The notes below the pieces were generated by a model that ran no database searches, was not told where the DNA came from, and saw nothing but the letters and a program-made list of their open reading frames with translations. Source: an uncultured Bacilli bacterium (lineage in GTDB: Bacteria > Bacillota_I > Bacilli_A > RFN20 > CAG-449). Taken from it: DNA of 64,000 nt. The position numbers and the translations under genes were made by a program. Numbering within the stretch: position 1 is the stretch's first letter; every line of letters begins with the position of its first letter. Below are positions 18,468 to 39,178 of this stretch, one piece after another. The stretch lies in NCBI GenBank assembly GCA_944332525.1, contig CALVKD010000001.1, positions 49,841 through 113,840 of the forward strand. Direction: 5' to 3'.

Positions 18468-19565
18468 ATGAAGAGATTACTTTATTTCGGTGGATCGTTT
18501 GATCCTATTCACAATGCACATTTAAAATTAGCATCTCTGGCTAAGGACGCTTTAAATTGCCAGAAATGCTTTTTTGTCTTAGCAAAAAATCCGCGTTGGA
18601 AAGACCCGACATGTTCGGCAGAAGACCGTTTAAAGATGCTCCGCTTAGCCATTAAAGGACATCCGGGCTTTGCTATTTCTTTAATTGAATATAATTCGGA
18701 TAAGGATACTACCTATACCTATGACACGGTCAAAACAATTCTTAGATATCATAAAAATGATCAACTATTCTATTTAATTGGTTCAGATCAGCTTGAGAAA
18801 CTCGATAAGTGGTATAAAATTGATGAACTGTCTAAGATGATTAAGTTTGTAGTTTTTAGGCGGAGTAATTATCCACTTAACGAAGAAAATATGAAGCGAT
18901 ACGATGTAAAGTTACTTAATGCTGAAGAGATGGACATTTCTTCGACAAAAATTCGCTTATTAAATAATCTTGACTGCCCTAAACCAGTCCTTGATTATAT
19001 TGCAAAATATCAGCTTTATTATACTTCACTTCTTAAAAACTATATTTCAAGTAAGCGACTAAATCATTGCTTCTCTGTAGCATCGTTAGCTTATGATATT
19101 GCTTTAGACAATCATAAAGACCCTTATAAGGCTTATCATGCTGGATTAATTCATGATATTGCAAAAGGTTTAAATAAAGAAAAAAGCTTAGAACTCATGC
19201 AAAAATATTTTCCAAGCGAAATTGGAAAAGTCGGAGAATGGGGTTACCATCAATTCTTAGCTGTTGTCATCGCTAAAGATATATTAAAAATAACTGATGA
19301 AGAAGTGTTAGAGGCGATAGAATATCACGCGACGGGGAAAAAACATATGTCACCTCTAGCAAAAATTATCTATTGCGCAGATAAGATAGATCCAACTAGA
19401 GGGTATGATTCTAGTGAATTAATAAAGAAATGTAAGGAAAATTACAAGGAAGGATTCAAGGCGGTTTTAAAAGCTAATATTGCCTATTTTAAAGAAAAGG
19501 GAATTGATTACTTAAATGACTACAGCAAGGAATGCTTTGAATATTATTTAGGAGAAACTGACTAA
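18468..19565 (+). CDS. nadD: nicotinate-nucleotide adenylyltransferase NadD fused to the HD-domain phosphohydrolase YqeK
   Basis: N-terminal GGSFDPIHNAH nucleotidyltransferase motif; C-terminal HD domain (HxxxxxxHDIAKG) as in YqeK. Single 365-aa ORF. Confidence 0.8.
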   Translation: MKRLLYFGGSFDPIHNAHLKLASLAKDALNCQKCFFVLAKNPRWKDPTCSAEDRLKMLRLAIKGHPGFAISLIEYNSDKDTTYTYDTVKTILRYHKNDQLFYLIGSDQLEKLDKWYKIDELSKMIKFVVFRRSNYPLNEENMKRYDVKLLNAEEMDISSTKIRLLNNLDCPKPVLDYIAKYQLYYTSLLKNYISSKRLNHCFSVASLAYDIALDNHKDPYKAYHAGLIHDIAKGLNKEKSLELMQKYFPSEIGKVGEWGYHQFLAVVIAKDILKITDEEVLEAIEYHATGKKHMSPLAKIIYCADKIDPTRGYDSSELIKKCKENYKEGFKAVLKANIAYFKEKGIDYLNDYSKECFEYYLGETD

Positions 19566-19903
19566 TGGAAGAATTAACATTAAATTTAATCAAAAAAGTT
19601 GTTGAGGATAAAAAATGTGAAGACATCGCTGTTTATGACGTTAGAACATCTTCACCAATTTGCTCATATATTGTGATCGCAACTGTTAATAATGCGCGTC
19701 AAGGAAAAGCTGTTGCTGATCAAATCGAAGAGGAAGTCGAAAAATTAGGCGGACATATTCATCACGTTGAAGGAGATGAACGTACTCCATGGATTTTAAT
19801 TGATGAAGGAGATATTATAATTCATCTCTTTACGGAGCAGGAAAGACAAAGAATTAATCTCGATGAACTCATCACTCAGGTTAACAATCATGCAAGAATA
19901 TAA
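19565..19903 (+). CDS. rsfS: ribosomal silencing factor RsfS (Iojap)
   Basis: 112 aa at the conserved position after nadD/yqeK. The DIAVYDV...YIVIAT pattern is typical. Confidence 0.85.
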   Translation: MEELTLNLIKKVVEDKKCEDIAVYDVRTSSPICSYIVIATVNNARQGKAVADQIEEEVEKLGGHIHHVEGDERTPWILIDEGDIIIHLFTEQERQRINLDELITQVNNHARI

Positions 19904-20576
19904 TTTAATCATTATCGCGATGAAAGAGGAAGAAGAGGCATTTATTAAATCTCTTCCAATCGAAGTTAAAGATTTTAGCGATAATTTAAAAACATTCACA
20001 TACAATAATGAAAATTTTCTAATTATGCGCGGAGAAGTCGGAAAAGGATCGACGTGTTTTCATCTTGGTTATTTAGATGCAAGATATAAGATTAAAAGAA
20101 TATTTAATATCGGAACATCTGGTGGGCTTTTCAGTAAGATGAATATCGGCGACATTGTTATTGCTGATAAAGTTTGCTATTTCGATGTCGATGCTTGTGA
20201 ATTCGGCTATAATTATGGTCAAGTTCCAGGATTCCCATTATATTTTGAAACAGATCAAAAATATGTTGAAAGTAAGTTAAATGTTTTAAAAGAGGCGGAC
20301 TTTTCTTTTAAAATTTGGAATGGATTAATTGCATCTAGTGACACTTTCATGACAAGAGATAAGATTTCAAAATTTTCGATTTCAGAAATAAAGCCTTTCT
20401 GCGTTGAAATGGAAGCGGCAGCAGTAGGTCAGTCAGCGTACTTGATGAAAGTACCGTTCGTCATAATTAGATCGATTAGCGATATTATAACAAGACCGGC
20501 AAATGCTGATGATTCTGTAAAAAATATTGAGATTTGCTCAAAAAATTGCGCAGAAGCGCTATTAGCATTAATTTAG
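19890..20576 (+). CDS. mtnN: 5'-methylthioadenosine/S-adenosylhomocysteine nucleosidase
   Basis: PNP/UDP phosphorylase fold motifs (GTSGGL, EMEAAAV). ATG at 19890 overlaps the rsfS stop. Confidence 0.85.
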   Translation: MQEYNLIIIAMKEEEEAFIKSLPIEVKDFSDNLKTFTYNNENFLIMRGEVGKGSTCFHLGYLDARYKIKRIFNIGTSGGLFSKMNIGDIVIADKVCYFDVDACEFGYNYGQVPGFPLYFETDQKYVESKLNVLKEADFSFKIWNGLIASSDTFMTRDKISKFSISEIKPFCVEMEAAAVGQSAYLMKVPFVIIRSISDIITRPANADDSVKNIEICSKNCAEALLALI

Positions 20577-20684
20577 TATATCTTTAGTAAAATCATAGTT
20601 ATAGTAATAAATTAGTATTTATTTAGTATAAAGTAATATATTAGTAGAAAATTAGTTATCTTATACTTTTATTATTTTTAGTAG

Positions 20685-20716
20685 AAGAGAGTGTTTAATT
20701 TATCACTCTTTTTATT
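20685..20716 (+). terminator. putative intrinsic terminator after mtnN
   Basis: AAGAGAGTG, 10-nt loop, CACTCTTT, then TTTTATTT. Confidence 0.45.
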
Positions 20717-20751
20717 TGAATAATTATTCCTCTATTTTTATATTATTAATT

Positions 20752-20779
20752 ACTTCGCATAATTGATATTATGTAAAGA
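20752..20779. other. dif: candidate dif chromosome-dimer resolution site (XerC/XerD core)
   Basis: ACTTCGCATAA-TTGATA-TTATGTAAAGA: two 11-bp arms with a CATAA/TTATG dyad around a 6-bp centre. The XerD arm TTATGTAAA and left ACTTC match the Firmicute dif as I recall it. Lies in the convergent terminus-like gap, 1.4 kb from xerD. Confidence 0.5.
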
Positions 20780-20953
20780 ATAAAGAAATTTGATAATAAA
20801 AATCAAAAAGTAATTAGTAGTATTAAGATTAAAAAACTTATATACTACTAATTACTTACTTCATACTATATTTAAACTAATTTATTACTATTTAACTAAT
20901 AAATCACTAATTAACTACTAATGCATTAATTACGCCATAATTATGGCAAGTCA

Positions 20954-22144
20954 TTAATCTTTTAGTAACTCGTCTATAATTGATCCAATTTGAAAGTCTT
21001 TTTTCTCTAATTTAAAGTTTTCAATAATTGTTCTTCCCATATCAGCAAACGAATTTCTATCTTCAATTCTTCTCCCGTTTTTAAATGATTTGCTATATGC
21101 AATAAAAGGAACTTTTTCACGCGTATGATCTGACCCTGGCATTGTCGGATCGTTACCGTGATCAGCAGTGACAATCAACAAATCATCATCTTTTAATAGT
21201 TTAATTAAATCGCCTAAATCTTTGTCAAATTCTTCGATGCATTTTCCGTATCCAAGTGGATTTCTTCTATGTCCATATTCAGAATCAAATTCAACTAAAT
21301 TGACAAAGCATAATCCTTTAAAATCTTCTTTAGCGATTTCTTGAGTGATTTCCATACCGTTATGATTCGATACTGTTTTAAAAGTCTTAGTTACTCCCAC
21401 ACCATTAAATATATCATTAATCTTACCGACACAGATGACATCATAACCATGGTCTTTCATCGTTTCCATATAAGTATAAGACGATGGTGATAAAGCATAA
21501 TCGTGACGACGCGGCGTTCTAGTAAAGTTATCCTTATTTGTTCCAATAAATGGTCTAGCAATAACTCTTCCAACTTTATATTCCTCTTTCATACAAAGTT
21601 CTCTTGCGACTTCACATAAATGATAAAGTTCTGGCACAGAGACAACGGCTTCATTTGCTGCGAGCTGGAGGACTGAATCAGCTGATGTATAAAGAATAAT
21701 TTCTCCTGTCTTTAAAGTTCTTTCACCAAGTTGCTTAATAATCTCGGTTCCCGAGGCAGCAATATTACCAATATACTTTTTACCTGTTTTCTCTTCTAAT
21801 TCATCAATTAATTCTTGAGGAAATCCCGTATCAGTGAAAGTCTTGAAAGGTTTTGTAGTTAAGACACCCATCATTTCCCAATGTCCAGTCATCGTATCTT
21901 TGCCGTTGCTCTCTTCATTTAATGCACAGACATAGGAATTGGCATGCGAAACCTTTTCAGTTCCAAGAATATCACTATTTATATCGTATAATCCTAGCAT
22001 ATTCAACGTTGGGATATTTAATCCTTTGCAACGCTCTGACACGTGAACGAATGTATTTGCACCTTCATCATGGAATTTATCTGCGTCAGCCATCGCACCG
22101 ACACCTAACGAATCCATAACGATCAAAAATACTCTTTTAAACAT
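20954..22144 (-). CDS. deoB: phosphopentomutase
   Basis: [21 protein letters not shown] and TADHGNDP alkaline-phosphatase-superfamily motifs. 396 aa. Confidence 0.9.
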
Positions 22145-22156
22145 AATTCCTCCTAT

Positions 22157-23032
22157 TTATTTCATCATCTTATCATATTCACTAATTAAATGTTTTGTTT
22201 CGACGTGAGTATAAATTTCTGTTGTTTTAATATCGGCATGCCCAAGCAAAGCTTTAACTGTTGATAATGAACATCCATTTTCTAAAAGATGCGAAGCAAA
22301 GCAATGTCTAATAGTATGCGGCGATACCTTATTTATTATACCGATTCTTTCAAATGATTTCTTAATAATTAAATAAAATTCTTGTCGAGAAATCATTTTT
22401 CCGCGGTCAGATATAAATATCTGCTTTTCTTTTTGATATTTTGAATTATTTCTTACTCCTTCAAAATATTTAATTAGATAGTTTTTGGCTACTTCATCAA
22501 TTGGTATAACTCTTTCTTTCGCACCTTTACCCTTAACTTTTAATTGACTTTTTTCCAAAGAAACCTCATTGAGTGTCAAAGATAAAAGCTCACTAACGCG
22601 TAATCCGCATGCGTACATTAATTCTATCATTGCTTTGTTTCGAATATCTTTGCTTGTTTCTAAAGGCAAAGAATCAAGCATCTCACGCATTTTTTCTTTT
22701 GAGATGATATAAGGCAGATATTTTCCTTTTTTATGACTTTCTAATGAAGAAAAATCAAACGACAAATCAGCGTGCAAAGAAAGATAAACTAAGAAATTTT
22801 TAATAGATGAGAGCTTTCTCACAATGGATGAGGCCTCTAAATCTTCAGAATGGAGCTTTTCAAGAAAGTTATTTACTTTTTCGGGTGATAAGTCATCTTT
22901 TGTACTTTTATCGCCTAGGAAGGCCAAAAACTGCTTTAAATCATTTTTATAAGATTCAATAGTTGATTTAGATAGTCCTTTTTCGACAACGAGAGAAATC
23001 AAATATTCATCTATATATTCTTTAAGAAGCAT
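22157..23032 (-). CDS. xerD: tyrosine site-specific recombinase XerD/RipX
   Basis: R...HxxR...Y catalytic motifs (RHCFASHLLENGCSLSTVKALLGHADIKTTEIYTHV). Next to deoB, as ripX is in B. subtilis. Confidence 0.85.
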   Translation of the reverse strand: MLLKEYIDEYLISLVVEKGLSKSTIESYKNDLKQFLAFLGDKSTKDDLSPEKVNNFLEKLHSEDLEASSIVRKLSSIKNFLVYLSLHADLSFDFSSLESHKKGKYLPYIISKEKMREMLDSLPLETSKDIRNKAMIELMYACGLRVSELLSLTLNEVSLEKSQLKVKGKGAKERVIPIDEVAKNYLIKYFEGVRNNSKYQKEKQIFISDRGKMISRQEFYLIIKKSFERIGIINKVSPHTIRHCFASHLLENGCSLSTVKALLGHADIKTTEIYTHVETKHLISEYDKMMK

Positions 23033-24200: not shown

Positions 24201-24206
24201 AACTAA

Positions 24207-25859
24207 TTATTTACTGATAAGCGATCTTGCAGCTTCAATAGCTTCCTCGGTCACTTCTCCAGCTATCATTTTTGCCATAGCGACAATCTTCTCATCATCA
24301 GATAATGGATGAACAAGTGAATATGTCCGCCCATTTTCAGATATTTTTTTGACTTCGTAAGCCTGCTTCGATTGAGCGACTAAAGCCGGCAAGTGTGAAA
24401 TCAAAATAACCTGGGAATCAACGCTTAAGTCTCTCATCTTTTTTCCTAGCGATATCCCGACTTTTCCCGACACTCCAACATCGATTTCATCAAAAATAAT
24501 GACATCTTTTGGAAGTAATTTATTAAAGACATACTTTAACGCAAAATTTAAACGCGATGATTCACCTAATGAAGCGGTTTTATCAAGCATCAAAAAGCGT
24601 TCACCTTCATTTGCTCTTAACATAAAGACAATATCATCGTTACCATCTAAATTAAATTTCTCGCTCTTAAAGAAATCTATTCTAAATAAAGCGTTTTTAA
24701 AATCCAAATCAACCAGCGTTTTATTAATTTCTGAAGATAAATCCAGGCTATATTTTTGTCTAATAGCCGTGATTTTTATAGATAAATCAACTAATTTTTT
24801 TTCGCTTAAGAAAATTTTTGTGTTAATTTTTTCCATTGCCGATTGATAATCTTCAATTAACAATAATTGCTCTTTCATTTTATTTAGAGAATCTAGAATA
24901 TCCGCGGTTGTATACCCGTATTTTCTTCTTAATCCATGTAATGTGAAGAGGCGGTCTTTAACTTCTTCTAGCTCTCTTTTTTTATCTTCGGCTGATTCAA
25001 AAATATTTTTTATTTCACTATAGGAATCATCTAAATCGTAATAAGCTTCTTCAAATTGGTTTTTTAAAGCCTCAATCTCTTCATCATCAATTCGCGATAA
25101 AGCCTTTTTAGCCGAGTAAAGCGAGTCTTTTGCATTATCATAATAATTAAGAAATTCGCTTAAGGTATCGCTTGTCCTTTCAAAATTAGAAAGACTTTCT
25201 CGACGTTTTTCTAAATCTTCCATTTCGTTTTCGGCAATATGTAAATTTTCGAGTTCGGCGATATTTTTTTTCAAAGTCTCTTCATCAGATATTTGCTCTG
25301 CTTGCTCTTCTTTTTCTTTTTTTTCTTTTAAGGCTTGCTGATAAATAAAATATTCATCATGGTAGTCTGTGAAAATTTTCTTTTCTTCAGCTGATGATTT
25401 GTTTTTTAAGTAGAGATCTAACAAATTAAGCTGATTTTCACTATGCAGATAAAAGGCGTCTTTTTGCTGAGAATGGATATCGATAACGTAATCCATTACT
25501 TTTCGAAGCAAGGTTAACGACGCTGAGGCATTGTTAATTTTAATAGTATTATGATTATTTTTATCAATTGTTCGAGAAATGATTAAGGTATGAGAGGAAA
25601 GTTCTTTACCGATTAGCTCCGAGATGAAGTTTTCATTAACTTGGCTTTTTAAGATAAATGTGCCTTCAATAAAGGCTTTATCTTCTCCAGTTCGAATCTT
25701 TTCAAGTGATGATTTGCTGCCGGAAAGTAAGCTTATCGCGTCAATTAATATGGATTTTCCTGCACCAGTTTCCCCGATTAAAGCAATAAAAGAAGAATCT
25801 AGCGATAAATCTAGATCATCAATTAATGCAAAATGAGAAATTTTTAAACGAGTAAGCAT
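24207..25859 (-). CDS. recN: DNA repair protein RecN
   Basis: N-terminal Walker A GETGAGKS, a coiled-coil middle, and C-terminal IIFDEIDVGVSG. 550 aa. Confidence 0.9.
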   Translation of the reverse strand: MLTRLKISHFALIDDLDLSLDSSFIALIGETGAGKSILIDAISLLSGSKSSLEKIRTGEDKAFIEGTFILKSQVNENFISELIGKELSSHTLIISRTIDKNNHNTIKINNASASLTLLRKVMDYVIDIHSQQKDAFYLHSENQLNLLDLYLKNKSSAEEKKIFTDYHDEYFIYQQALKEKKEKEEQAEQISDEETLKKNIAELENLHIAENEMEDLEKRRESLSNFERTSDTLSEFLNYYDNAKDSLYSAKKALSRIDDEEIEALKNQFEEAYYDLDDSYSEIKNIFESAEDKKRELEEVKDRLFTLHGLRRKYGYTTADILDSLNKMKEQLLLIEDYQSAMEKINTKIFLSEKKLVDLSIKITAIRQKYSLDLSSEINKTLVDLDFKNALFRIDFFKSEKFNLDGNDDIVFMLRANEGERFLMLDKTASLGESSRLNFALKYVFNKLLPKDVIIFDEIDVGVSGKVGISLGKKMRDLSVDSQVILISHLPALVAQSKQAYEVKKISENGRTYSLVHPLSDDEKIVAMAKMIAGEVTEEAIEAARSLISK

Positions 25860-31135: not shown

Positions 31136-32053
31136 TTATTCAACTTGATTATCGCCGCTTCCGTCTTTACTAATAAAGACATTTTCAACGTTTTTAATCA
31201 AGGCGAACATTTTTTCATGAAAACTTCGCATACTCAAAATTTTCTTTTCAAAAATTTCTGATGATATGCGGTGGAAAATTCCATCCACAAAAGTCATTTT
31301 TAAATCTTTAACAAAGAGCAAGAGATGCTCATCATCAAAAACGAGATTGATTTTATGATTAAAATAATTATCGATTTCAATAACTGATTTAATACCTCCA
31401 TTATCCATAAAATCATAAATTTTATTACCTGAAGCATAGATATAAAAATTATCAGATAATGAATAAGAGGCAAAACCATAAGCATTAAGAGCTTCATTTT
31501 CATAATATTTTTTTGCATATACTTCCTCATCGCAGATTTGAAAGAAGAAGTTTGTCGCGACATTAAATTCGGAAATAAATATCATTCCGTATCCAGTTTT
31601 AACGTGATCATTATAACGGACGAGATAAATATCAAACGATCGTTCGCTAGTAGCATCAGAATAAGCCTCTAGATAATAGAATTTTTTCAGAAAAAATATT
31701 TTTTTTAAATAGTTATCGCGTTCTTGATTAATGATGATGTTATTGTCTAAAAGATATATTTCTTCAAGTTTGCATTCATTTAGAAAAATCTTCTTGTATT
31801 CGTCGAGATAGATTTTATTAAGCCTTAGGCTATAGAGAAATGCTGATAAAACAATTAAGATGGTAATCAAGACAAAATATAAACTAACAAAATATATTAA
31901 TCCGTGAATAATTTCCCTCTTTTCTAGATATTTTAATAAAAAATATCCACCAAATAGTAAAATTGCGAAAACGACGATAAAAATCGAGAGTTTTAGAAAA
32001 GAAAAAAACTTGATTCTATTTAATTGCTGAACGCGGACTTCATAGTTTTTCAT
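31136..32053 (-). CDS. hypothetical membrane protein: two N-terminal TM helices and a domain of about 230 aa of unknown function
   Basis: 305-aa ORF with hydrophobic segments at about 15-40 and 50-76. No recognisable motif. Last gene of the jetABC-like operon. Confidence 0.45.
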   Translation of the reverse strand: MKNYEVRVQQLNRIKFFSFLKLSIFIVVFAILLFGGYFLLKYLEKREIIHGLIYFVSLYFVLITILIVLSAFLYSLRLNKIYLDEYKKIFLNECKLEEIYLLDNNIIINQERDNYLKKIFFLKKFYYLEAYSDATSERSFDIYLVRYNDHVKTGYGMIFISEFNVATNFFFQICDEEVYAKKYYENEALNAYGFASYSLSDNFYIYASGNKIYDFMDNGGIKSVIEIDNYFNHKINLVFDDEHLLLFVKDLKMTFVDGIFHRISSEIFEKKILSMRSFHEKMFALIKNVENVFISKDGSGDNQVE

Positions 32054-32107
32054 AATTCAATTATAGAAGATGCGTTTTAACATTTAAACAGAGATCAAGT
32101 ATTTTAA

Positions 32108-32557
32108 TTAATCATTGTATCGAGAATTATCGAGATTCTTTTTTCTTTTTTTCCTCTTTCTAACGAAGATTAAGCAGATGATGAATAATCCGCCATAGAT
32201 AATTAACATAAAGTAATTATTCCAAGCTAGGAAATTCGTCAAAGGCTCTGTGTTATTAACAAAATTTCCAATAAACACAGCAAGAGCATTGCTTAAGTAA
32301 GCATGAAACGTTGCTAATGGAAGAGATATAGCATTTAACGCCTGATCTAGAAATGCTCCAATATGGTTCAAATCTTTCAAATTATCGGTTAATACACCGG
32401 TCGATGATAGATAGTAAAGCCCATTGGAAAGGAAGAAAGCAAAGAAAAAGAAGGTGATAAAACGTGTTTTTTTAGCTATCACGACGATGATAACCATCAA
32501 AACAATTAATATGATAAGAAATATCAGACTATTTAGCAAAAGGTCTAATCCATCCAT
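32108..32557 (-). CDS. hypothetical small polytopic membrane protein with a basic C-terminal tail
   Basis: 149 aa, 3-4 hydrophobic segments, C-terminal RKRKKRKK. AGGAGA SD sits 11 nt after the jetC-like stop, so translational coupling is likely. Confidence 0.4.
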   Translation of the reverse strand: MDGLDLLLNSLIFLIILIVLMVIIVVIAKKTRFITFFFFAFFLSNGLYYLSSTGVLTDNLKDLNHIGAFLDQALNAISLPLATFHAYLSNALAVFIGNFVNNTEPLTNFLAWNNYFMLIIYGGLFIICLIFVRKRKKRKKNLDNSRYND

Positions 32558-32568
32558 AATAGTATCTC

Positions 32569-35500
32569 CTATTTACCATGATACACGAATGGATCCATAT
32601 GCGAAACATTTTCTTGAGGTTTTCTTGTAACAACTAAGGTTCTATCGACAACCGTTGAGATATCGAGAACTTTCTCTGGTGGTGCCGAAATGATTACTTG
32701 CAAATCGAAATCTTTTAAAATCTTAATGGATTCAACAATTCTGTTACGATCCATCTTTGAGAAAGCTTCATCAAAGATAACTAATCTGATGCAGTTAGAA
32801 ATATTCTTATTGGCCTTAACGCGGTAAAGCTGTGAGAAAGAAGCTAAGATTGAGATATAGAATGGTGTTTGCGTTTCACCGCCAGAAGCCTTTTTAATAT
32901 TTCTCGCTAAGGAATAGACGGCTCCGTCTGGCTTTTTAACTTTTAAGTCGAAGATTAAATATGAGCGATAATCTGTGAACTTTTCAATATTTTGAGCGAC
33001 TTGTTCAGCTTTATCCTTACCTTCTCCATCAGAGATTAAACGGAATAAATTATCCATGACATCTTTATGCTTGAGCAAGAAAGCTTCATCATCGCTATCG
33101 ACATCGAGCAACATCTCATCGGTAATCATATTGTAATAATCGATATATTGAGGATTTGGTTGAATTGTAAATTCATAGGAATCCTGACCGAAATGCGCAT
33201 CTTTTAAAGCTTCGTTAAGGTCACCGATTTGTAAACGCGCCTGTTCAATAGCCGTTTTTAATTTAAAAATGAAATCATCCTTAAATTCTTTAGTTGCCTT
33301 TTGATGTGCATCTTCAATTTTGACTAAGTACTGAGGAAGTTTGACATCGCGCAGCGTTGTTAATTCTCTCTCAAAATCATCATTATCTTCTTTAGTGATA
33401 TCATATGATAATTTATAGGTAATAACGTAAGAAGACCGACGATCTTTCAATTGTTCATTAAGGTTTCTAATTCTGTTTTGAACCTTAGAGTAGATATCAT
33501 CATATTTTAAACGGATATCAGCTAATGAGAGATTGCTTGCGAGTTCGTTATCAAAGGTTGGTTTTGCTGTTTGCTCAACCCATTCCGTATCAAATGAATT
33601 CTCAATTTCTTCCATGTAAGCTGAGGATTTCTTAACTTCTTGCGGAATCTTTTCTTCTTTAGTGACTTTAATATTATTCTGTAAAGCACCTTTTTCGAGA
33701 ATTAATTCATTTTTCTGATTGTTAAGTTGTTCGATATCGGTATCAATTCTCTTAATCTTCGTATCAGTAGTTTGCAGATCTTGACTCGTACCAGCTTTTA
33801 ATTCTTCTTCGTACTGTTTAAGATTATTCTTTAATGAAGCGAGTAAATCGCTGCTATCGAGCTGATTGAGGCAAATCATCTGCTCAGATTGCGACATAAT
33901 ATCGAGTTCTTTAGCTTCAGATAAAGTATCAACTAATTCTTTTAATGCTCCGATTGATTTAGCTTCTAAATCGAGTTCTTTCATTCTCTGATCGCGGACT
34001 TCACGCGATACCGATCTTCCAATCAACGGATAACGGTAAAGGCGATCTGGTATGACAAAGGAAGCAAATGAACGATATCCAATGCAGGAAGGACAAATAC
34101 CATGTCCGGATTCTCTAGCTTCTTGGAAAGTTTCACATTTTGTTAATCGACCAATTAAGAAATTAGTATAATCGCGGGCACCTTTATGATCGGTAATAAT
34201 TTCTTCGGCCAAAGAATTTTCTTCAGCTTCAAAATTATGCTGAGCTAACGCTCTCTCATCGACTAAACCCGTCCGGTGATAGCCGTTTCTCTTCATAATA
34301 CCCGGCAATAACTTATTAGCAACTTCGTAATATTTATCCTTAACGAATAAATTAAGTTTCTGAGCGGAAATAAATCCCTCAATTGCATTAATCCAGCGCT
34401 TATTACGAATATCGACCAAATCAGCGTAAATTAAGACATCAACTTTTTCATGGAAATGATCTTCAAGAGCCAATTTTAATTGATTTCTGACATTGAGGAA
34501 AGCATCGTCATAGTATTTACCGCTGCTTGAAGTAACTAAAGTCTGCTTTTGCTGGCTAATTCTATTGATAACCATACCGATAGATGACTTTAAGACGCTA
34601 TATTCTTCAATAACAACATTTTTAAAATCACTAATAGCCGATGAAAAGTTTTTGAATAAGTCTGGTGTCAAAGAGCCTAAATTCAAGGCTTCTTTGGTTG
34701 CCATTAACGCTTTATCAAGATTGGCACATTCTAATTCAAGATGCTTCAAAGACTCTAATACTTTGTTATCATCAGTATGCTCAGCAGAACTCAAGCATAA
34801 TGAATTAATTTTATTTTCATAATTTAAGAAATTATTAACATACGTATTAATGCGAGTATATAAAGCTTGAAGATTTTCTTCAATCTCGCAAACTTTTCTT
34901 TCAGCATCTTGATAAGATTTTCTTAAATCTTGAGTTAATTTATAATTATCATTAGAAAATTTATAAGCGATTAAGGTTTGCTTTTGTTCTTCAAGAGCTT
35001 CAATATCGCTTTCGATTTCCCTAATTGAAGAATCAATTTCAGCAATTCTTTCCTCAGCGCGGCTGATATCATTATGATAAGATGCGATATAATCAGAAGA
35101 AATCTGTAAGAAAATTCTCTTCGAGATATAGGAAGCTAAGGACATTTCTTTACGTTTATCAACTATCTGTTGATAAATATTATGAATTTCTTCAAGCGAT
35201 TTAATTTTTACCATCATCTCATCGGCTTCGATTTTTAAGCGTTCATATGAGGTAATATTTGATTTCATCGATTCAATATTAATATCATTAGGAACATCGC
35301 AAACATATTCGGTGATAAAGGATTCAATATTGGTGATAGGTATAAAGGAAACAGCCTTCTTAAAGAGTGAGAAGTATTTTTCCTTAAGATTACCAAATTT
35401 TTCTTTAATGACCCCTTGGTATTGCGCGTTTGAATCACAGAAAATAAATTTATCGCTATTATAATTTGCACTAAAATACTCTTGCAAAGTCTTTTGTGAC

Positions 35501-35937
35501 ATTGGAACGCGATCGATTAAGAAATGGTTTTCTGGAAATTTATCTTCGAGATAGAAGAAGCGGTGTTGCTCAGAACCATCATCGAAAACATCAAAAACGA
35601 CACCGACAGTAAACGGTTGATTCAAGACATCATCGAAAAATTCCAGTGCGATATAGGAAGTAAAGCGACCAGTTCTTAAAAATTTTGTCGATCCATCTTC
35701 ATTATCACCGACTTCACAGCGCAGATACCCTTTTAAAGTACGACCGGATTTTTCATTAGCAGCCTTATTAAAAGAACGACCATAGGTGTCGCCAAGCAAA
35801 ACAACTTGCATAGCATCGATAACTGTCGATTTTCCGGCAGCATTAACACCGGTTAAAAAGTTTAACATGCCGAATTCAACTTCAATATTTTGGAAATAGT
35901 GCCAGTTGATCAGACGCAATTTAGTTAATTTTTTCAT
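32569..35937 (-). CDS. MukB/MksB/JetC-like SMC-family ATPase
   Basis: 1122 aa. N-terminal LRLINWHYF...GVNAAGKST (MukB-type Walker A). Long coiled-coil regions around a globular hinge of about 170 aa (GICPSCIGYRS). C-terminal SGGE signature, Walker B LVIFDEAFSKMD and a D-loop. Confidence 0.7.
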   Translation of the reverse strand: MKKLTKLRLINWHYFQNIEVEFGMLNFLTGVNAAGKSTVIDAMQVVLLGDTYGRSFNKAANEKSGRTLKGYLRCEVGDNEDGSTKFLRTGRFTSYIALEFFDDVLNQPFTVGVVFDVFDDGSEQHRFFYLEDKFPENHFLIDRVPMSQKTLQEYFSANYNSDKFIFCDSNAQYQGVIKEKFGNLKEKYFSLFKKAVSFIPITNIESFITEYVCDVPNDINIESMKSNITSYERLKIEADEMMVKIKSLEEIHNIYQQIVDKRKEMSLASYISKRIFLQISSDYIASYHNDISRAEERIAEIDSSIREIESDIEALEEQKQTLIAYKFSNDNYKLTQDLRKSYQDAERKVCEIEENLQALYTRINTYVNNFLNYENKINSLCLSSAEHTDDNKVLESLKHLELECANLDKALMATKEALNLGSLTPDLFKNFSSAISDFKNVVIEEYSVLKSSIGMVINRISQQKQTLVTSSSGKYYDDAFLNVRNQLKLALEDHFHEKVDVLIYADLVDIRNKRWINAIEGFISAQKLNLFVKDKYYEVANKLLPGIMKRNGYHRTGLVDERALAQHNFEAEENSLAEEIITDHKGARDYTNFLIGRLTKCETFQEARESGHGICPSCIGYRSFASFVIPDRLYRYPLIGRSVSREVRDQRMKELDLEAKSIGALKELVDTLSEAKELDIMSQSEQMICLNQLDSSDLLASLKNNLKQYEEELKAGTSQDLQTTDTKIKRIDTDIEQLNNQKNELILEKGALQNNIKVTKEEKIPQEVKKSSAYMEEIENSFDTEWVEQTAKPTFDNELASNLSLADIRLKYDDIYSKVQNRIRNLNEQLKDRRSSYVITYKLSYDITKEDNDDFERELTTLRDVKLPQYLVKIEDAHQKATKEFKDDFIFKLKTAIEQARLQIGDLNEALKDAHFGQDSYEFTIQPNPQYIDYYNMITDEMLLDVDSDDEAFLLKHKDVMDNLFRLISDGEGKDKAEQVAQNIEKFTDYRSYLIFDLKVKKPDGAVYSLARNIKKASGGETQTPFYISILASFSQLYRVKANKNISNCIRLVIFDEAFSKMDRNRIVESIKILKDFDLQVIISAPPEKVLDISTVVDRTLVVTRKPQENVSHMDPFVYHGK

Positions 35938-36566
35938 TCTGCATCCTCCATAAATTCTTCATCCGGAAGTGATTCAACTTGCTTATATAGGCTTTGAATT
36001 ACTTCGTAATCAACCACAAATGCAATTGAAGGATTAATATAGAAAGTTAAATTTTTCTCATAAAAATCCCCGCTTATTCTCGTTATAATATTATGTTGTT
36101 CTAAAAAGCGATATGACGATTCAAGCGATGAATACGAGACCCTTTTATCTTGACGAATTAAATGCATATTAATTAAGCACTGCATTAATTCATGGCTAGT
36201 AAAACGGACGACTTGATTAAGTGCGTCATCATTATTTTGAGTTTCGTAGACATATCTTAAAGCAAAAATAACTAAGGATGTTTTTAAATCCAATTTCAAA
36301 TGATTTTCTTCATATTCATTTTTAATAGAAATTACCCCGCGCGATGAATCTTTATTAACAATCCATCCAGATAAAGAGAGATAGTTTGAAACTAAATCAA
36401 GATGGCGCTCAATAAAGGAATACTCTTTACTCGCCCGCATCATCTTCGCATTGCGGTCGTAATAATCTCTGAGAATAAAACTTTTCAGCATCAAAGTATT
36501 AACCACATGGGCGAATTCCTCTTTTTCGACATTGCGCAATTGTTCATATTCTTCTAGCATCGTCAA
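35934..36566 (-). CDS. MukE/MksE/JetB-like kite subunit candidate
   Basis: 210 aa, overlapping both neighbours by 4 nt. Size and position match the kite subunit of MukFEB-like operons. Assigned by context, not by motif. Confidence 0.45.
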   Translation of the reverse strand: MTMLEEYEQLRNVEKEEFAHVVNTLMLKSFILRDYYDRNAKMMRASKEYSFIERHLDLVSNYLSLSGWIVNKDSSRGVISIKNEYEENHLKLDLKTSLVIFALRYVYETQNNDDALNQVVRFTSHELMQCLINMHLIRQDKRVSYSSLESSYRFLEQHNIITRISGDFYEKNLTFYINPSIAFVVDYEVIQSLYKQVESLPDEEFMEDAE

Positions 36567-37993
36567 TTCTCCTTTTTAGTATAGATATAATCTGGTGCAT
36601 TAACTTTATCATTAACTTCGACGTTGACGTTTAATTTATCCTCGCGGTCCATATCATAGAAACTAATCGGTGCTGTTGCTTTAATTGCTCCAAGCATCAA
36701 ATAGAGGAAATCATCAACGCTTTCAACTTTACAATCGTGGACGCGTATTTGTTTTTTATCTTGAAAATTTTCAGCCATAAATTCCATAACTCTCTCATCG
36801 GAGTAACGCGCTGTTTCAGCCATTGCCATCGTCATTTGCGAATCATCGAAAATATGTTCATCATCAGGTAATGGAAGCGGATCAGAGAAGAACTTTTGAT
36901 TTCTCTCATATGGTTTTCTAAGCGATCCCTCATCATAATAACCCTGCGTGTAGAGTTTTATTGAAGAGCCAAATGCCCTAATAATATTTGGATATGAGGA
37001 ATTTCTATCTTGCTCATTTTTGGAAAGATTTCTAGCTAATACCGTAAAAATCTTTTCGAGTTTACCCTTAACCGATTTATCGTGGTTATTGAGGAAGATG
37101 ACCTTATCCGCCGAAGCTTTAACATATTCCGATTGCGAAACATCAATATTATTAATTTCCGTAGACAAGCGGAGATAGATATCTTGAATTCTCGTAATCT
37201 TTTTTACTACATCATCAGTAGCTTCTAATCGCGATTTGACCGATTTATTTTCTTTAAGGCATTGATCAATTAATTTTTCACGTACTGTATCAACTTCTAA
37301 CCAGCGTTTCAAAATTGAAGAAATTGGTCCGTGATAAAGAGTGATTGAATCATGGGTTTTTAACGGATGGTAAATTGGATCGACGACGTCTTCACGGCAG
37401 ATATCAAAATGCTGCTTGAGGACTTCGTTAGGCTCAAACATATCGCTGAGCTGACGTTTATATACTTTAATTGAATGATCGAGTTTAGCTACCTCAATGG
37501 CTAATGATTCAGTATTGTTATAGGCATTTTCTAAGGTTTTATACATTGATTCATCTTGATTATCATCTTCATATTTTAAATCAGCATATGTTGTATGCAC
37601 GTAGCTAACATAATGATTTGCAGAAGTGTCGGCAAATTCGTAAATCAGTTTCAACATATTAACAGAATATGAAGGAAGCAAGATATATTCGGTGCCTGTT
37701 TTTGTGTCGTAATCAATATAAATCCAACCTGTTTCAATTAAGCGTTTAACAATTTGATTTGCTTTCGCGCCAATTGATGTTTCGCTTACTACACCATCTT
37801 CTTCATCAACGTAAGAATTTAAATCATCGCCGGAACGACTCTTTAATAATTCGACATAATCATTTTTTCTTATGCGCGCGCGATAAAGGTTTAATGCATC
37901 ATAAAGCACGATTAAAGCATCGCCGTAAACTCCCTTATTACGCGATGCTAAAATTGAAAAGAAATTATCCGGTAATTTTGCAAATAAATTCAT
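36563..37993 (-). CDS. MukF/MksF/JetA-like kleisin subunit candidate
   Basis: 476 aa, first gene of a translationally coupled three-gene operon with the SMC-like ATPase. Assigned by size and context. Confidence 0.45.
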   Translation of the reverse strand: MNLFAKLPDNFFSILASRNKGVYGDALIVLYDALNLYRARIRKNDYVELLKSRSGDDLNSYVDEEDGVVSETSIGAKANQIVKRLIETGWIYIDYDTKTGTEYILLPSYSVNMLKLIYEFADTSANHYVSYVHTTYADLKYEDDNQDESMYKTLENAYNNTESLAIEVAKLDHSIKVYKRQLSDMFEPNEVLKQHFDICREDVVDPIYHPLKTHDSITLYHGPISSILKRWLEVDTVREKLIDQCLKENKSVKSRLEATDDVVKKITRIQDIYLRLSTEINNIDVSQSEYVKASADKVIFLNNHDKSVKGKLEKIFTVLARNLSKNEQDRNSSYPNIIRAFGSSIKLYTQGYYDEGSLRKPYERNQKFFSDPLPLPDDEHIFDDSQMTMAMAETARYSDERVMEFMAENFQDKKQIRVHDCKVESVDDFLYLMLGAIKATAPISFYDMDREDKLNVNVEVNDKVNAPDYIYTKKEN

Positions 37994-38810: not shown

Positions 38811-39107
38811 CTATAAGCCACGCTTATTAAATTGGTAATCGGCTCCGGCAATATACATAAGAGCTTCAACGACGATAATAATTTTTCCCTCGTAAACTTC
38901 TAATCTACCATCGACCGAGATCAATGTGCCATTTTTATACGAAAATAAAGAATTACGATCATCGCGCGACCACATCATCAAAGGAAATATATCTTTTGGA
39001 TAGACTCCTTGATCATCTTTATATTGACGCGTGACTTCAATATAACGAATTGGGGATTTACTTTCTCTTTCGAGTAAAACTCCATTTAGTGAGACATGAT
39101 TAATCAT
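38811..39107 (-). CDS. short single-stranded-DNA-binding protein paralog (OB fold only, no acidic C-terminal tail)
   Basis: MINHVSLNGVLLERE...MMWSR...ISVDGRLEV...IIVVEAL aligns with the SSB OB fold (MLNRVVLVGRL...VTWRR...GVDGRLQ). About 98 aa. Start chosen at the internal M. Confidence 0.6.
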   Translation of the reverse strand: MINHVSLNGVLLERESKSPIRYIEVTRQYKDDQGVYPKDIFPLMMWSRDDRNSLFSYKNGTLISVDGRLEVYEGKIIIVVEALMYIAGADYQFNKRGL

Positions 39108-39178
39108 AGCAAAACACCTCACCTATATTTTACCATGTTAAGAAATAACCGCGTCCGCGACTAATCGCAGATGAGTCT

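What the first reader, a model, noticed from the sequence alone, without database searches (positions are those of the whole stretch)
20572..20940. Opposed arrays of TTAGTA / TACTAA hexamers flanking the dif-like site
The left half of the gap carries at least 7 copies of TTAGTA on the + strand, at intervals of about 9-19 bp. The right half carries the reverse complement TACTAA or close variants at least 4-7 times. So the motif polarity flips across the dif-like core. A 10-bp inverted repeat TTAGTAGTAT/ATACTACTAA lies at 20814-20851. This looks like a structured protein-binding landscape rather than simple low complexity. Its role is unknown. It could be a terminus-organising or Xer accessory site array, a polarity signal, or a terminator cluster.
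Basis: seen in the sequence. Interest (0 to 1): 0.55.

Follow-up and report, generated by a model that had tools for sequence, protein, structure and literature searches.

The report
Phased repeat arrays flanking dif
The two opposed TTAGTA/TACTAA arrays are real: they are enlarged copies of an 11-bp repeat that uncultured gut Bacilli keep next to their chromosome-dimer resolution site dif (usually with DnaA boxes), but the polarity flip follows the two converging operons, not the replication terminus.

Summary
The 377-bp gap between convergent mtnN and deoB holds a dif site at the GC-skew switch. It has about 10 TTAGTA-like units on the left and about 8 TACTAA-like units on the right, mostly in 11-bp register, far beyond shuffled expectation. 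In 66 related species-level genomes (uncultured gut Bacilli), about 55 carry 2-4 CTACTAA units 100-140 bp from the XerD arm of dif. Forty-five also carry DnaA-box-like sites at +73-75, +84-89 or +94-99, quantised by about 11 bp. This window and its closest relatives lost the box and expanded the arrays on both flanks. Arrays also occur at a few other operon boundaries. At plsY, a minus-strand gene 10 kb left of dif, they follow the gene, not dif. Ter-like and KOPS-like readings are therefore not supported. My best reading is a DNA-level array for an unidentified protein, one unit per helical turn, at transcription-unit ends, with the dif-adjacent copy as the conserved core. A Xer-accessory role stays open. 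No known family fits.

The parts
19863..20576 (+). mtnN (5'-methylthioadenosine/S-adenosylhomocysteine nucleosidase), last gene of the left operon. Its TAG stop is the TAG of the first TTAGTA unit.
   Evidence: NCBIfam TIGR01704 at 120 bits, above its cutoff of 73.8; ORF list.
20573..20683 (+). Left array: about 10 TTAGTA-like units (6 exact) on the + strand in 11-bp registers, lying between the mtnN stop codon and the mtnN terminator.
   Evidence: The same-species locus L001 and the relative L207 have the same arrangement.
20684..20717 (+). Intrinsic terminator of the mtnN operon: hairpin 20684-20713 followed by a T run.
   Evidence: RNA fold -10.6 kcal/mol, z = -2.9. The simple scan missed it because the stem is AT-rich.
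20753..20780 (+). dif site, ACTTCGCATAA TTGATA TTATGTAAAGA (XerC arm, spacer, XerD arm).
   Evidence: Cumulative GC skew peaks at about 20-21 kb. xerD lies at 22157-23032. A homologous 28-mer in the same orientation is found in 66 of 80 related loci.
20789..20807 (.). Weak inverted repeat TTTGAT-N7-ATCAAA just right of dif. It occupies the position of the A-run/hairpin/T-run bidirectional terminator seen in relatives.
   Evidence: RNA folds of -2.2 and -2.6 kcal/mol; consensus of relatives.
20796..20857 (-). Intrinsic terminator of deoB: hairpin 20808-20857 plus a T run at 20796-20807 on the minus strand.
   Evidence: RNA fold -19.6 kcal/mol, z = -5.9, 0 of 200 shuffles as stable.
20843..20921 (-). 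Right array: about 8 units reading TTAGTA-like on the minus strand (TACTAA, AACTAA, CACTAA and TACTAT on +). It lies between the deoB stop codon and the deoB terminator and overlaps the terminator's right arm.
   Evidence: It is homologous in position to the 2-4-unit array found in about 55 of 66 related genomes.
20954..22144 (-). deoB (phosphopentomutase), last gene of the right operon dinB-xerD-deoB.
   Evidence: NCBIfam NF003766 at 534 bits.
22157..23032 (-). xerD-type tyrosine recombinase, 1.4 kb from dif.
   Evidence: TIGR02225 at 289 bits, below its equivalog cutoff of 329.6, and the tyrosine-recombinase model NF001399 at 276 bits, just below its cutoff of 279, so the XerD assignment is by best match. 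Synteny with dif holds across the clade.

Best explanation
Both arrays are amplified copies of a lineage-specific 11-bp repeat element. Its consensus is aaCTACTAAwT, which reads TTAGTAG on the coding strand. In each of the two operons that converge on dif, the element sits between the stop codon and the Rho-independent terminator. That much is shown. The polarity flips because the operons converge (shown by comparison with relatives). I infer that the element acts at the DNA level as a binding array for an unidentified sequence-specific protein, one unit per helical turn, all on one face of the helix. In most relatives the deoB-side copy is joined to 1-3 DnaA boxes, and the whole module keeps helical register with dif. 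The inferred function is a nucleoprotein boundary complex at the ends of transcription units. It would reinforce termination, or block RNA polymerase, just outside dif, and may also shape the DNA next to the XerD arm. In this genome and its nearest relatives the DnaA box was lost, and the arrays expanded to about 8-10 units on both flanks.
For: The arrays are real and phased at 11 bp. Each lies between a stop codon and an intrinsic terminator. In 66 species-level genomes carrying a dif near deoB, TACTAA-N5-TACTAA (at most 1 mismatch) gives 82 hits at +60..+200 from dif on one strand, that is, arrays in about 55 of the 66 genomes. DnaA-box-like TTWTCCAC[AC] occurs 50 times in the 100 bp right of dif (45 loci) against 31 times in the other 817 kb. 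Box positions fall only at 73-75, 84-89 and 94-99, apart from the second boxes of tandem pairs at 106-108 (Rayleigh R = 0.77 at period 11). The spacer between dif and the box has no 11-bp periodicity, so repeat slippage does not explain the quantisation. The module persists whatever gene lies to its right (deoB, a PemK-like gene, an ABC permease, or a + strand ORF). Of 124 array sites, 117 are intergenic. The other sites are operon boundaries: parC|yqeG, xseB or spo0A|dinB/dxs, upstream of xerD, glyS|dnaG, upstream of hisS, and the plsY 3' end. At plsY, a head-on gene 10 kb left of dif, six of seven species orient the array with the gene. In L026 the array lies in a divergent promoter region upstream of a TATAAT, which favours DNA-level over RNA-level action. 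No array occurs in about 126 kb around ruvB from three relatives, nor in the rest of this 64-kb window. There is a precedent for a winged-helix protein that prefers AACTA/TACTA and shares sites with DnaA: Rok (PMC6212790).
Against: No binding protein has been identified, and none of the window's ORFs I scanned is a candidate. The arrays are transcribed as 3' UTR or intercistronic RNA, so an RNA-level role is not excluded. The window itself has no DnaA box, so part of the argument rests on relatives. A few arrays are inverted relative to their genes (L003, L054, L212, L215). The related genomes share ancestry and synteny, so counts of loci overstate independent events. That a roadblock helps termination here is inference only.
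Confidence: 0.4

Rival explanations
1. Xer accessory region. The dif-adjacent array, with DnaA boxes in relatives, binds architectural proteins that wrap or loop DNA next to the XerD arm and control chromosome-dimer resolution. This would work like the accessory sequences of plasmid cer/psi sites or the arm sites of lambda-type attP.
For: The distance to dif is fixed and the DnaA-box position is quantised by about 11 bp, with a non-repetitive spacer. The module's orientation relative to dif is invariant in about 55 species and does not depend on the flanking gene. A second array usually sits directly upstream of the operon that contains xerD. In the window, arrays flank the core on both sides at about +/-100 bp.
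Against: The module lies on the XerD-arm side, not the XerC side as in cer/psi (established knowledge). The same arrays occur at sites unrelated to Xer: the plsY 3' end, glyS|dnaG and hisS. A bidirectional terminator sits between dif and the module. XerD here is 291 aa and has no extra arm-binding domain. Orientation relative to dif cannot be separated from inherited synteny.
Confidence: 0.2
2. RNA-level element. UUAGUAG repeats in 3' UTRs and intercistronic spacers act on the transcript. They could bind an RNA-binding protein, act as a processing or stability signal, or serve as a three-frame stop-codon trap, because an 11-nt period rotates the TAG-TAG pair through all three frames.
For: Orientation follows the mRNA sense strand at nearly all sites, including the head-on gene plsY. 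The arrays lie in transcribed regions between stop codon and terminator, or directly before the next start codon, and the stop codon is often inside the first unit.
Against: An 11-nt period has no obvious RNA rationale but matches the DNA helical repeat. The element is associated and phased with DnaA boxes, which are DNA elements. An array lies upstream of a -10 element in a divergent promoter region in L026. No Rfam family matches. The element is found at only a few genes.
Confidence: 0.15
3. Operator sites of an ordinary transcription factor that binds tandem direct repeats 11 bp apart, like OmpR/PhoB-type regulators. Its regulon would include dinB-xerD-deoB, dnaG, hisS and the yqeG operon, and the dif-flanking copies would have no terminus-related role.
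For: Arrays sit 1-23 bp upstream of the start codons of dxs, dinB, xerD, dnaG and hisS. They persist upstream of dinB whatever the upstream gene is. At hisS, dnaG and yqeG a TATAAT-like hexamer follows the array (my reading of the sequences).
Against: In this window none of those genes has an array; only the two gene-less dif flanks do. The dif-proximal copy has no downstream gene yet is the most conserved one. At dxs and dinB the array abuts the ATG and leaves no room for a promoter.
Confidence: 0.12
4. Replication or segregation polarity element: Ter-like polar fork barriers forming a trap around dif, or KOPS-like FtsK-orienting sequences.
For: The arrays are opposed across dif at the skew switch. 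Near dif in relatives, left-side arrays read TTAGTA on + (19 against 2) and right-side arrays read TACTAA on + (37 against 2). Known fork traps (Tus, RTP) arose independently and are rare, so a third type is conceivable (PMC10331603).
Against: At plsY, 10 kb left of dif, six of seven species have the opposite orientation, which would block incoming forks. Many genomes with 4-6 kb of left flank have no left array. Single motifs show no leading-strand skew in the window. No RTP- or Tus-like gene is present among the window ORFs I scanned.
Confidence: 0.07
5. Neutral AT-rich minisatellite produced by replication slippage, with no function.
For: Copy number varies from 2 to about 10 between relatives and is expanded in this lineage. 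Unrelated 11-bp TACTAA tandem repeats exist in many metagenomic contigs.
Against: The heptamer CTACTAA and its 11-bp spacing are conserved at orthologous positions across genomes whose DeoB is only 57-70% identical, while the surrounding intergenic sequence is not conserved.
Confidence: 0.05

Closest known systems
Rok-bound regions shared with DnaA in Bacillus subtilis (winged-helix nucleoid-associated silencer)
   Same: The Rok winged helix prefers AACTA and TACTA, exactly the cores of the units here (TACTAA, AACTAA). Thirty-six B. subtilis regions bind both Rok and DnaA (PMC6212790). Here the arrays adjoin DnaA boxes in 45 of 66 relatives.
   Different: Rok sites are loose AT-rich regions, not strictly 11-bp-phased oriented heptamers. 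Rok is known only from some Bacillus species. No Rok gene was seen in this window. TACTA rarity in this window is not specific (Markov O/E 0.86).
Accessory sequences of plasmid Xer sites (cer with ArgR/PepA, psi with ArcA/PepA)
   Same: Protein-binding sites lie about 100-150 bp from a XerC/XerD core and need correct helical phasing. From my own knowledge, ArcA binds direct repeats 11 bp apart.
   Different: Those sequences lie on the XerC side and on plasmids. Here the module is on the XerD side of a chromosomal dif, a terminator lies in between, and identical arrays occur far from any Xer site.
Replication terminators: RTP-Ter of B. subtilis (inverted pair IRI/IRII) and Tus-Ter of E. coli
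   Same: Opposed, polar protein-binding sites at the replication terminus (PMC10331603).
   Different: The orientation rule fails at plsY. No terminator-protein homolog was found. The units are simple direct repeats rather than A/B half-sites.
Basal unwinding system of oriC (DnaA boxes plus DnaA-trios / DnaD recognition element)
   Same: In relatives the order and orientation is 5'-TTATCCACA ... CTACTA-3'. B. subtilis oriC has 5'-CTACTATTACTTCTACTA-3' next to DnaA boxes 6 and 7 (PMC10201434; PMC8287927).
   Different: The element is at the terminus, not the origin. The units are 11 bp apart rather than contiguous trinucleotides. The spacer is up to about 30 bp rather than at most 16 bp. The window has no box.
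FapR operator
   Same: The same hexamers and the same 5-bp spacer: TTAGTA-N5-TACTAA (PMC5028935).
   Different: The FapR site is a single inverted repeat in fab/pls promoters. Here the repeats are direct arrays, and no FapR-type palindrome exists in the window beyond chance.

Membership tests
dif (XerC/XerD chromosome dimer resolution site) | 28-bp site with XerC arm, 6-bp spacer and XerD arm, matching the Firmicutes consensus | tested here: met
   20753-20780 reads ACTTCGCATAATTGATATTATGTAAAGA. Homologous sites with at most 5 arm mismatches occur in 66 of 80 related loci.
dif (XerC/XerD chromosome dimer resolution site) | Located at the replication terminus (GC-skew switch, convergent genes) | tested here: met
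   Cumulative GC skew is maximal at about 20-21 kb. Genes are on + to the left and on - to the right.
Intrinsic (Rho-independent) terminator | Stable hairpin followed by a U run, downstream of a gene on the same strand | tested here: met
   Hairpin 20684-20713 plus T run (+ strand, -10.6 kcal/mol). Hairpin 20808-20857 plus T run (- strand, -19.6 kcal/mol, z = -5.9).
KOPS/SRS (FtsK/SpoIIIE-orienting polar sequences) | Over-represented along the replichores and strongly skewed to the leading strand | tested here: not met
   TTAGTA: 36 observed against 39 expected. Outside the gap the counts are 3 toward dif / 4 away on the left and 10 toward / 9 away on the right. TTAGTAG: 0 toward and 3 away.
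KOPS/SRS (FtsK/SpoIIIE-orienting polar sequences) | Recognised by the FtsK gamma domain | not testable with these tools
   Needs biochemistry.
Ter sites of a replication fork trap (RTP or Tus type) | All sites on one side of the terminus share the orientation that lets forks in and not out | tested here: not met
   Arrays at the plsY 3' end, 10.2-11.7 kb left of dif, have the right-side orientation in 6 of 7 species.
Ter sites of a replication fork trap (RTP or Tus type) | Cognate terminator protein (RTP or Tus homolog) encoded, usually next to a Ter site | tested here: inconclusive
   No such hit among 38 window ORFs scanned. Only 64 kb of the genome is available.
Xer accessory sequences (cer/psi type) | Protein-binding region within about 200 bp of the Xer core, in fixed helical phase | tested here: met
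   The array lies at +100..+140. The DnaA box lies at 73-75, 84-89 or 94-99, with no intermediate positions. This applies to relatives; the window has arrays only.
Xer accessory sequences (cer/psi type) | Located on the XerC-arm side and bound by ArgR or ArcA plus PepA | tested here: not met
   The conserved module is on the XerD-arm side. ARG or ArcA boxes were not specifically searched.
oriC basal unwinding system (BUS) | DnaA box followed within 0-16 bp by at least 3 contiguous DnaA-trios, inside oriC | tested here: not met
   Criteria from PMC8287927. Here the units are 11 bp apart, TACTAA starts 9-50 bp after the box start, and the locus is the terminus. There is no box in the window.
Rok-type silencer binding region | Enrichment of AACTA/TACTA in the bound region | tested here: met
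   ACTA occurs 9 times in 173 bp on the right, and its complement TAGT occurs 8 times in 176 bp on the left, against 2.1 and 2.6 expected.
Rok-type silencer binding region | A Rok homolog encoded in the genome, and genome-wide depletion of AACTA/TACTA | tested here: inconclusive
   No candidate in the window. TACTA is the 4th rarest of 96 AT-rich pentamers, but its Markov O/E is 0.86 and that of AACTA is 1.00.
FapR operator | 17-bp palindrome TTAGTA-N5-TACTAA | tested here: not met
   6 matches at up to 2 mismatches against 5.1 expected, none convincing.
Known RNA families (Rfam 15) | Match to a covariance model | tested here: not met
   No hit at E <= 1 in 19500-22000. No hit at gathering score in nine related loci.

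The most novel reading that the evidence does not exclude
The dif-adjacent module (DnaA box or boxes plus phased CTACTAA repeats, in helical register with the XerD arm) is a new kind of chromosomal Xer control region. In it the replication initiator DnaA and an unknown repeat-binding protein build a complex next to dif. That complex would couple replication status or transcription insulation to chromosome-dimer resolution, across a whole order-level clade of uncultured gut Bacilli. The two-sided arrays of this window would be a box-less derivative.
Probability: 0.2. Interest if true: 0.85.

Novelty: new variant of a known kind. Interest (0 to 1): 0.6.

Why it matters
Chromosomal dif sites are usually regarded as bare 28-bp sites controlled by FtsK; accessory DNA is known only for plasmid Xer sites. 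Here a large uncultured clade of gut Bacilli keeps about 140 bp of structured DNA next to dif. It comprises DnaA boxes and one-per-turn heptamer repeats, and the distance to dif is quantised by the helical repeat. If the module acts on Xer, on termination of transcription in front of dif, or on DnaA, it would link the initiator protein to the terminus. That link has not been described. The repeat itself defines a binding site for a protein still to be found. The site is short and specific enough to be used directly as bait. The work also shows that a 'polarity switch at dif' can be produced simply by convergent transcription, which is a useful caution for genome scans.

Tried and rejected
1. 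KOPS-like polarity signal: rejected. There is no over-representation and no strand skew.

2. Ter-like fork trap: rejected as the main reading. Arrays at the head-on gene plsY follow the gene, and many genomes lack a left array within 4-6 kb.

3. FapR operator: the same hexamers occur, but there are no palindromes.

4. oriC-type BUS copy: the box-to-CTACTA order is the same, but the units are not contiguous trios and the locus is the terminus.

5. Known RNA families: none found.

6. Candidate binding protein in the window: the small and unannotated ORFs gave Ogt, EF-P, UPF0154, Asp23, MraZ, YceD, RuvA and so on. Three had no family: by eye, one lipoprotein-like, one membrane protein and one OB-fold-like. 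None is RTP-, Tus-, Rok- or FapR-like.

7. The PemK-like gene that abuts the module in at least 17 relatives as the binding partner: it is absent from this window by tblastn.

It did reveal arrays at glyS|dnaG and hisS.

9. Pentamer depletion as a signature of a Rok-like silencer: inconclusive.

10. Cruciform or long hairpin formed by the two complementary arrays: the single strand folds better than shuffles (z = -3.9). With 78% complementarity and a 163-nt spacer, I regard this as a by-product of the inverted arrays.

Full report
**Setting.** The finding lies in the 377-bp gap (20577-20953) between two convergent genes. On the left is mtnN (19863-20576, + strand), the last gene of a yqeG-yqeH-yhbY-nadD/yqeK-rsfS-mtnN operon. 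On the right is deoB (20954-22144, - strand), the last gene of dinB-xerD-deoB. Cumulative GC skew rises up to about 20-21 kb and falls afterwards, and genes point inward from both sides, so this is the replication terminus. The 28-mer ACTTCGCATAATTGATATTATGTAAAGA at 20753-20780 is a Firmicutes-type dif.

**The organism.** The closest genome records are metagenome-assembled genomes labelled uncultured Bacilli, 'Mollicutes', Coprobacillus sp. CAG:826, Candidatus Scatoplasma, Onthovivens, Enteromonas and similar. One locus, L001, has a DeoB 98% identical to the window's and is presumably the same species. From my own knowledge these names correspond to the GTDB orders RF39/RFN20 and neighbours. 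NCBI files them as Bacilli incertae sedis.

- Exact TTAGTA occurs six times on the + strand left of dif and once right of it. TACTAA occurs twice, ACTAA five times and ACTA nine times on the right.
- The hexamer is not enriched in the window as a whole (36 against 39 expected), but 10 of the 36 copies fall within 400 bp.
- Against dinucleotide-preserving shuffles of the gap itself, the left count is 5 against 0.5. The strand-polarity index is 15 against 0.1 +/- 3. Neither value is reached in 5000 shuffles.
- Pairs spaced exactly 11 bp number four on each side, against 0.1-0.2 expected.
- The units form 11-bp registers with occasional frame jumps. Lag-11 autocorrelation is 0.49 and 0.57, against about 0.35 at other lags.

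**Local anatomy.** Both arrays lie between a stop codon and an intrinsic terminator.
- On the + strand the order is: mtnN stop (the TAG of the first unit), array 20573-20683, hairpin 20684-20713 with a T run, then dif.
- On the - strand the order is: deoB stop, array 20921 down to 20843, hairpin 20857 down to 20808 (-19.6 kcal/mol, z = -5.9) with a T run at 20807-20796, then dif.
- The consensus terminator scan found nothing because the stems are AT-rich.
- Because the arrays are mutually complementary, the whole gap folds better than shuffles as a single strand (z = -3.9). I regard this as a by-product.

**Relatives near dif.** A scan of one genome per species with DeoB returned 80 loci. In 66 of them a dif with the same orientation lies 0.2-4.5 kb downstream of deoB. 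Aligning on dif revealed a conserved module on the XerD-arm side. Its parts, in order, are:
- dif;
- an A run, a hairpin and a T run, which I read as a bidirectional terminator;
- about 50 bp of unconserved spacer;
- a DnaA-box-like site (consensus AgTTtTCCACAtat, often TTATCCACA, sometimes two or three copies);
- 10-30 bp of spacer;
- two to four units of aaCTACTAAwT spaced exactly 11 bp apart;
- the stop codon of whatever gene comes next.

**Numbers for the module.** TACTAA-N5-TACTAA with at most one mismatch gives 82 hits in +60..+200 on that strand. About 55 of the 66 genomes have the array. The box occurs 50 times in the 100 bp right of dif, in 45 genomes, against 31 times in the remaining 817 kb on both strands. 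The right-hand neighbour may be deoB, a PemK-like gene, an ABC permease or even a + strand ORF, so the module belongs to dif rather than to a gene.

**Helical register.** Main box positions relative to dif fall at 73-75, 84-89 or 94-99; the only other values, 106-108, are the second box of a tandem pair. No box falls in between (Rayleigh R = 0.77 at period 11). The intervening spacer shows no 11-bp periodicity, so the quantisation is not repeat slippage. It looks like a helical-phase constraint.

**Where this window sits in that picture.** The window, its conspecific L001 and the relative L207 have no box. They have enlarged arrays on both flanks of dif.

**Other array sites.** In the same loci, arrays also occur after parC and upstream of yqeG (about -3.3 kb). 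They occur directly upstream of the operon that contains xerD, at the xseB|dxs, xseB|dinB and spo0A|dinB junctions, or immediately before xerD (+4.5 to +8.4 kb). A metagenome scan added glyS|dnaG and a site upstream of hisS. Of 124 sites, 117 are intergenic.

**Where arrays are absent.** None occurs in about 126 kb around ruvB from three relatives. None occurs in the remaining 63.6 kb of this window, including the parC|yqeG and xseB|recN junctions. The element is therefore sparse and is placed at boundaries of transcription units.

**What sets the polarity?** Near dif, all left-hand genes are on + and all right-hand genes on -. Replication direction and transcription direction are therefore confounded there (left arrays 19:2, right arrays 37:2). 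Nine loci anchored on ParC broke the confound. plsY is a minus-strand, head-on gene 10.2-11.7 kb left of dif. Seven species carry an array at its 3' end, again between stop codon and terminator. In six of them the array reads TTAGTA in the plsY sense, which is the orientation typical of the right side of dif. Single heptamers show no strand skew in the window. The flip across dif is therefore a consequence of two operons converging. A dif-centred polarity signal of KOPS type, or a fork trap of Ter type, is not supported.

**DNA or RNA?** The arrays are transcribed, so an RNA role cannot be excluded. Four observations favour the DNA level. First, the period equals the helical repeat. Second, the arrays are joined to DnaA boxes, which are DNA elements, in fixed order and orientation, and the boxes are in helical register with dif. 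Third, in L026 the array sits in a divergent promoter region upstream of a -10 element. Fourth, no RNA family matches.

**Best explanation (confidence 0.4).** I take the element to be an array of sites for an unidentified sequence-specific DNA-binding protein, one unit per turn on one face of the helix, marking ends of transcription units. The dif-adjacent copy, with DnaA, is the conserved core. Its inferred role is a boundary or roadblock complex that keeps transcription out of dif and may shape the DNA beside the XerD arm. The anatomy and the conservation are shown. The binding and the function are inferred.

**Rivals.**
- A true Xer-accessory function (0.2) is favoured by the helical register with dif and by the second array in front of the xerD operon. 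It is weakened by the module's position on the XerD side, by the intervening terminator, and by identical arrays at unrelated genes.
- An RNA-level element (0.15).
- An ordinary regulon operator (0.12).
- A Ter- or KOPS-like element (0.07).
- A neutral minisatellite (0.05).

**Comparison with known systems.** The nearest precedent for the motif is B. subtilis Rok. Its winged helix prefers AACTA and TACTA, and it shares 36 chromosomal regions with DnaA (PMC6212790). Rok sites are not phased oriented heptamers, however, Rok is known only in some Bacillus species, and the pentamer depletion test here is inconclusive. The order 5'-DnaA box ... CTACTA-3' recalls the oriC unwinding system, whose B. 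subtilis top strand reads CTACTATTACTTCTACTA (PMC10201434; criteria in PMC8287927). The spacing, the spacer length and the terminus location all fail those criteria. The FapR operator uses the same hexamers as an inverted repeat (PMC5028935), and none occurs here. Known fork traps are limited to Tus and RTP lineages (PMC10331603), and the orientation rule fails here. I found no description of DnaA boxes or phased repeats next to a chromosomal dif in the searched literature. That is absence of evidence within that library only.

**Verdict.** It is partly wrong: the polarity is transcriptional, not terminus-centred. The element fits no known family. I rate it a new variant of a known kind (a phased protein-binding repeat array or recombination-site accessory DNA), with interest 0.6.

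Noticed in passing
window 31136-37993 (- strand): The ORF at 36563-37993 matches Pfam JetA (Wadjet) at 270 bits. It is followed by ORFs of 210 aa, 1122 aa (SMC-like by length), 149 aa and 305 aa. This looks like a Wadjet/JetABCD-type or condensin-like operon about 10-17 kb from dif. Only JetA was checked.
   Followed up: partly
L005, L007, L009, L011, L014, L018, L019, L024, L027, L029, L034, L036, L039, L041, L042, L058, L072: first gene right of dif: A 170-215 aa protein with a PemK/MazF-like toxin domain (PF02452, 44 bits) and an N-terminal extension of about 60 aa abuts the dif module in at least 17 species. No antitoxin gene is obvious. It is absent from this window by tblastn.
   Followed up: partly
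L086, L093, L094, L108, L116, L164, L171, L183, L185, L190, L191, L195, L198 (metagenome contigs, GC 0.44-0.55): An unrelated family of intergenic arrays of 4-8 units of TACTAA plus tcaca/taacc (period 11 bp). It occurs in contigs of about 50% GC that I take, by composition only, to be Bacteroidales-like, next to various genes (a 145-aa protein starting MAKVEFSAG..., murI, engB, ribosomal protein genes). Its function is unknown.
   Followed up: partly
window 18468-19565 (+): nadD and yqeK are fused into one 365-aa ORF (NF005519 at 314 bits for the whole length, plus TIGR00488 for residues 189-344). The fusion is conserved in the relatives (ORFs of 355-375 aa left of dif).
   Followed up: no
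L208, L211, L212, L213, L215 (about 3.5-4.8 kb right of dif, and between parC and yqeG): Several relatives encode Spo0A (PF08769), a sigma-70-family factor between parC and yqeG, and SpoIIIAH-like proteins, so parts of this clade look like spore formers. At the corresponding positions the window has recN and no sigma-factor gene.
   Followed up: no
window 24201-24217: AACTAATTATTTACTGA, a two-unit array with 2 mismatches, overlaps the recN stop codon just upstream of the dinB start. This is the position where relatives carry a full array. It could be a decayed remnant or chance.
   Followed up: partly
L003 +250..+278, L054 +5498, L212 and L215 at the plsY 3' end: A few arrays are inverted relative to the usual gene-sense orientation, or form head-to-head pairs (for example TACTAATAGTA). 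These exceptions are not explained by any of the readings.
   Followed up: no
window 38811-39122 (- strand): A 103-aa ORF with no Pfam hit sits between the 712-aa ORF at 39179-41317, which I take to be recG only from gene order (not scanned), and an acyltransferase gene. In B. subtilis, from my own memory of its gene order, fapR occupies that position. By eye the sequence looks like a small OB-fold/SSB-like protein, not FapR.
   Followed up: no
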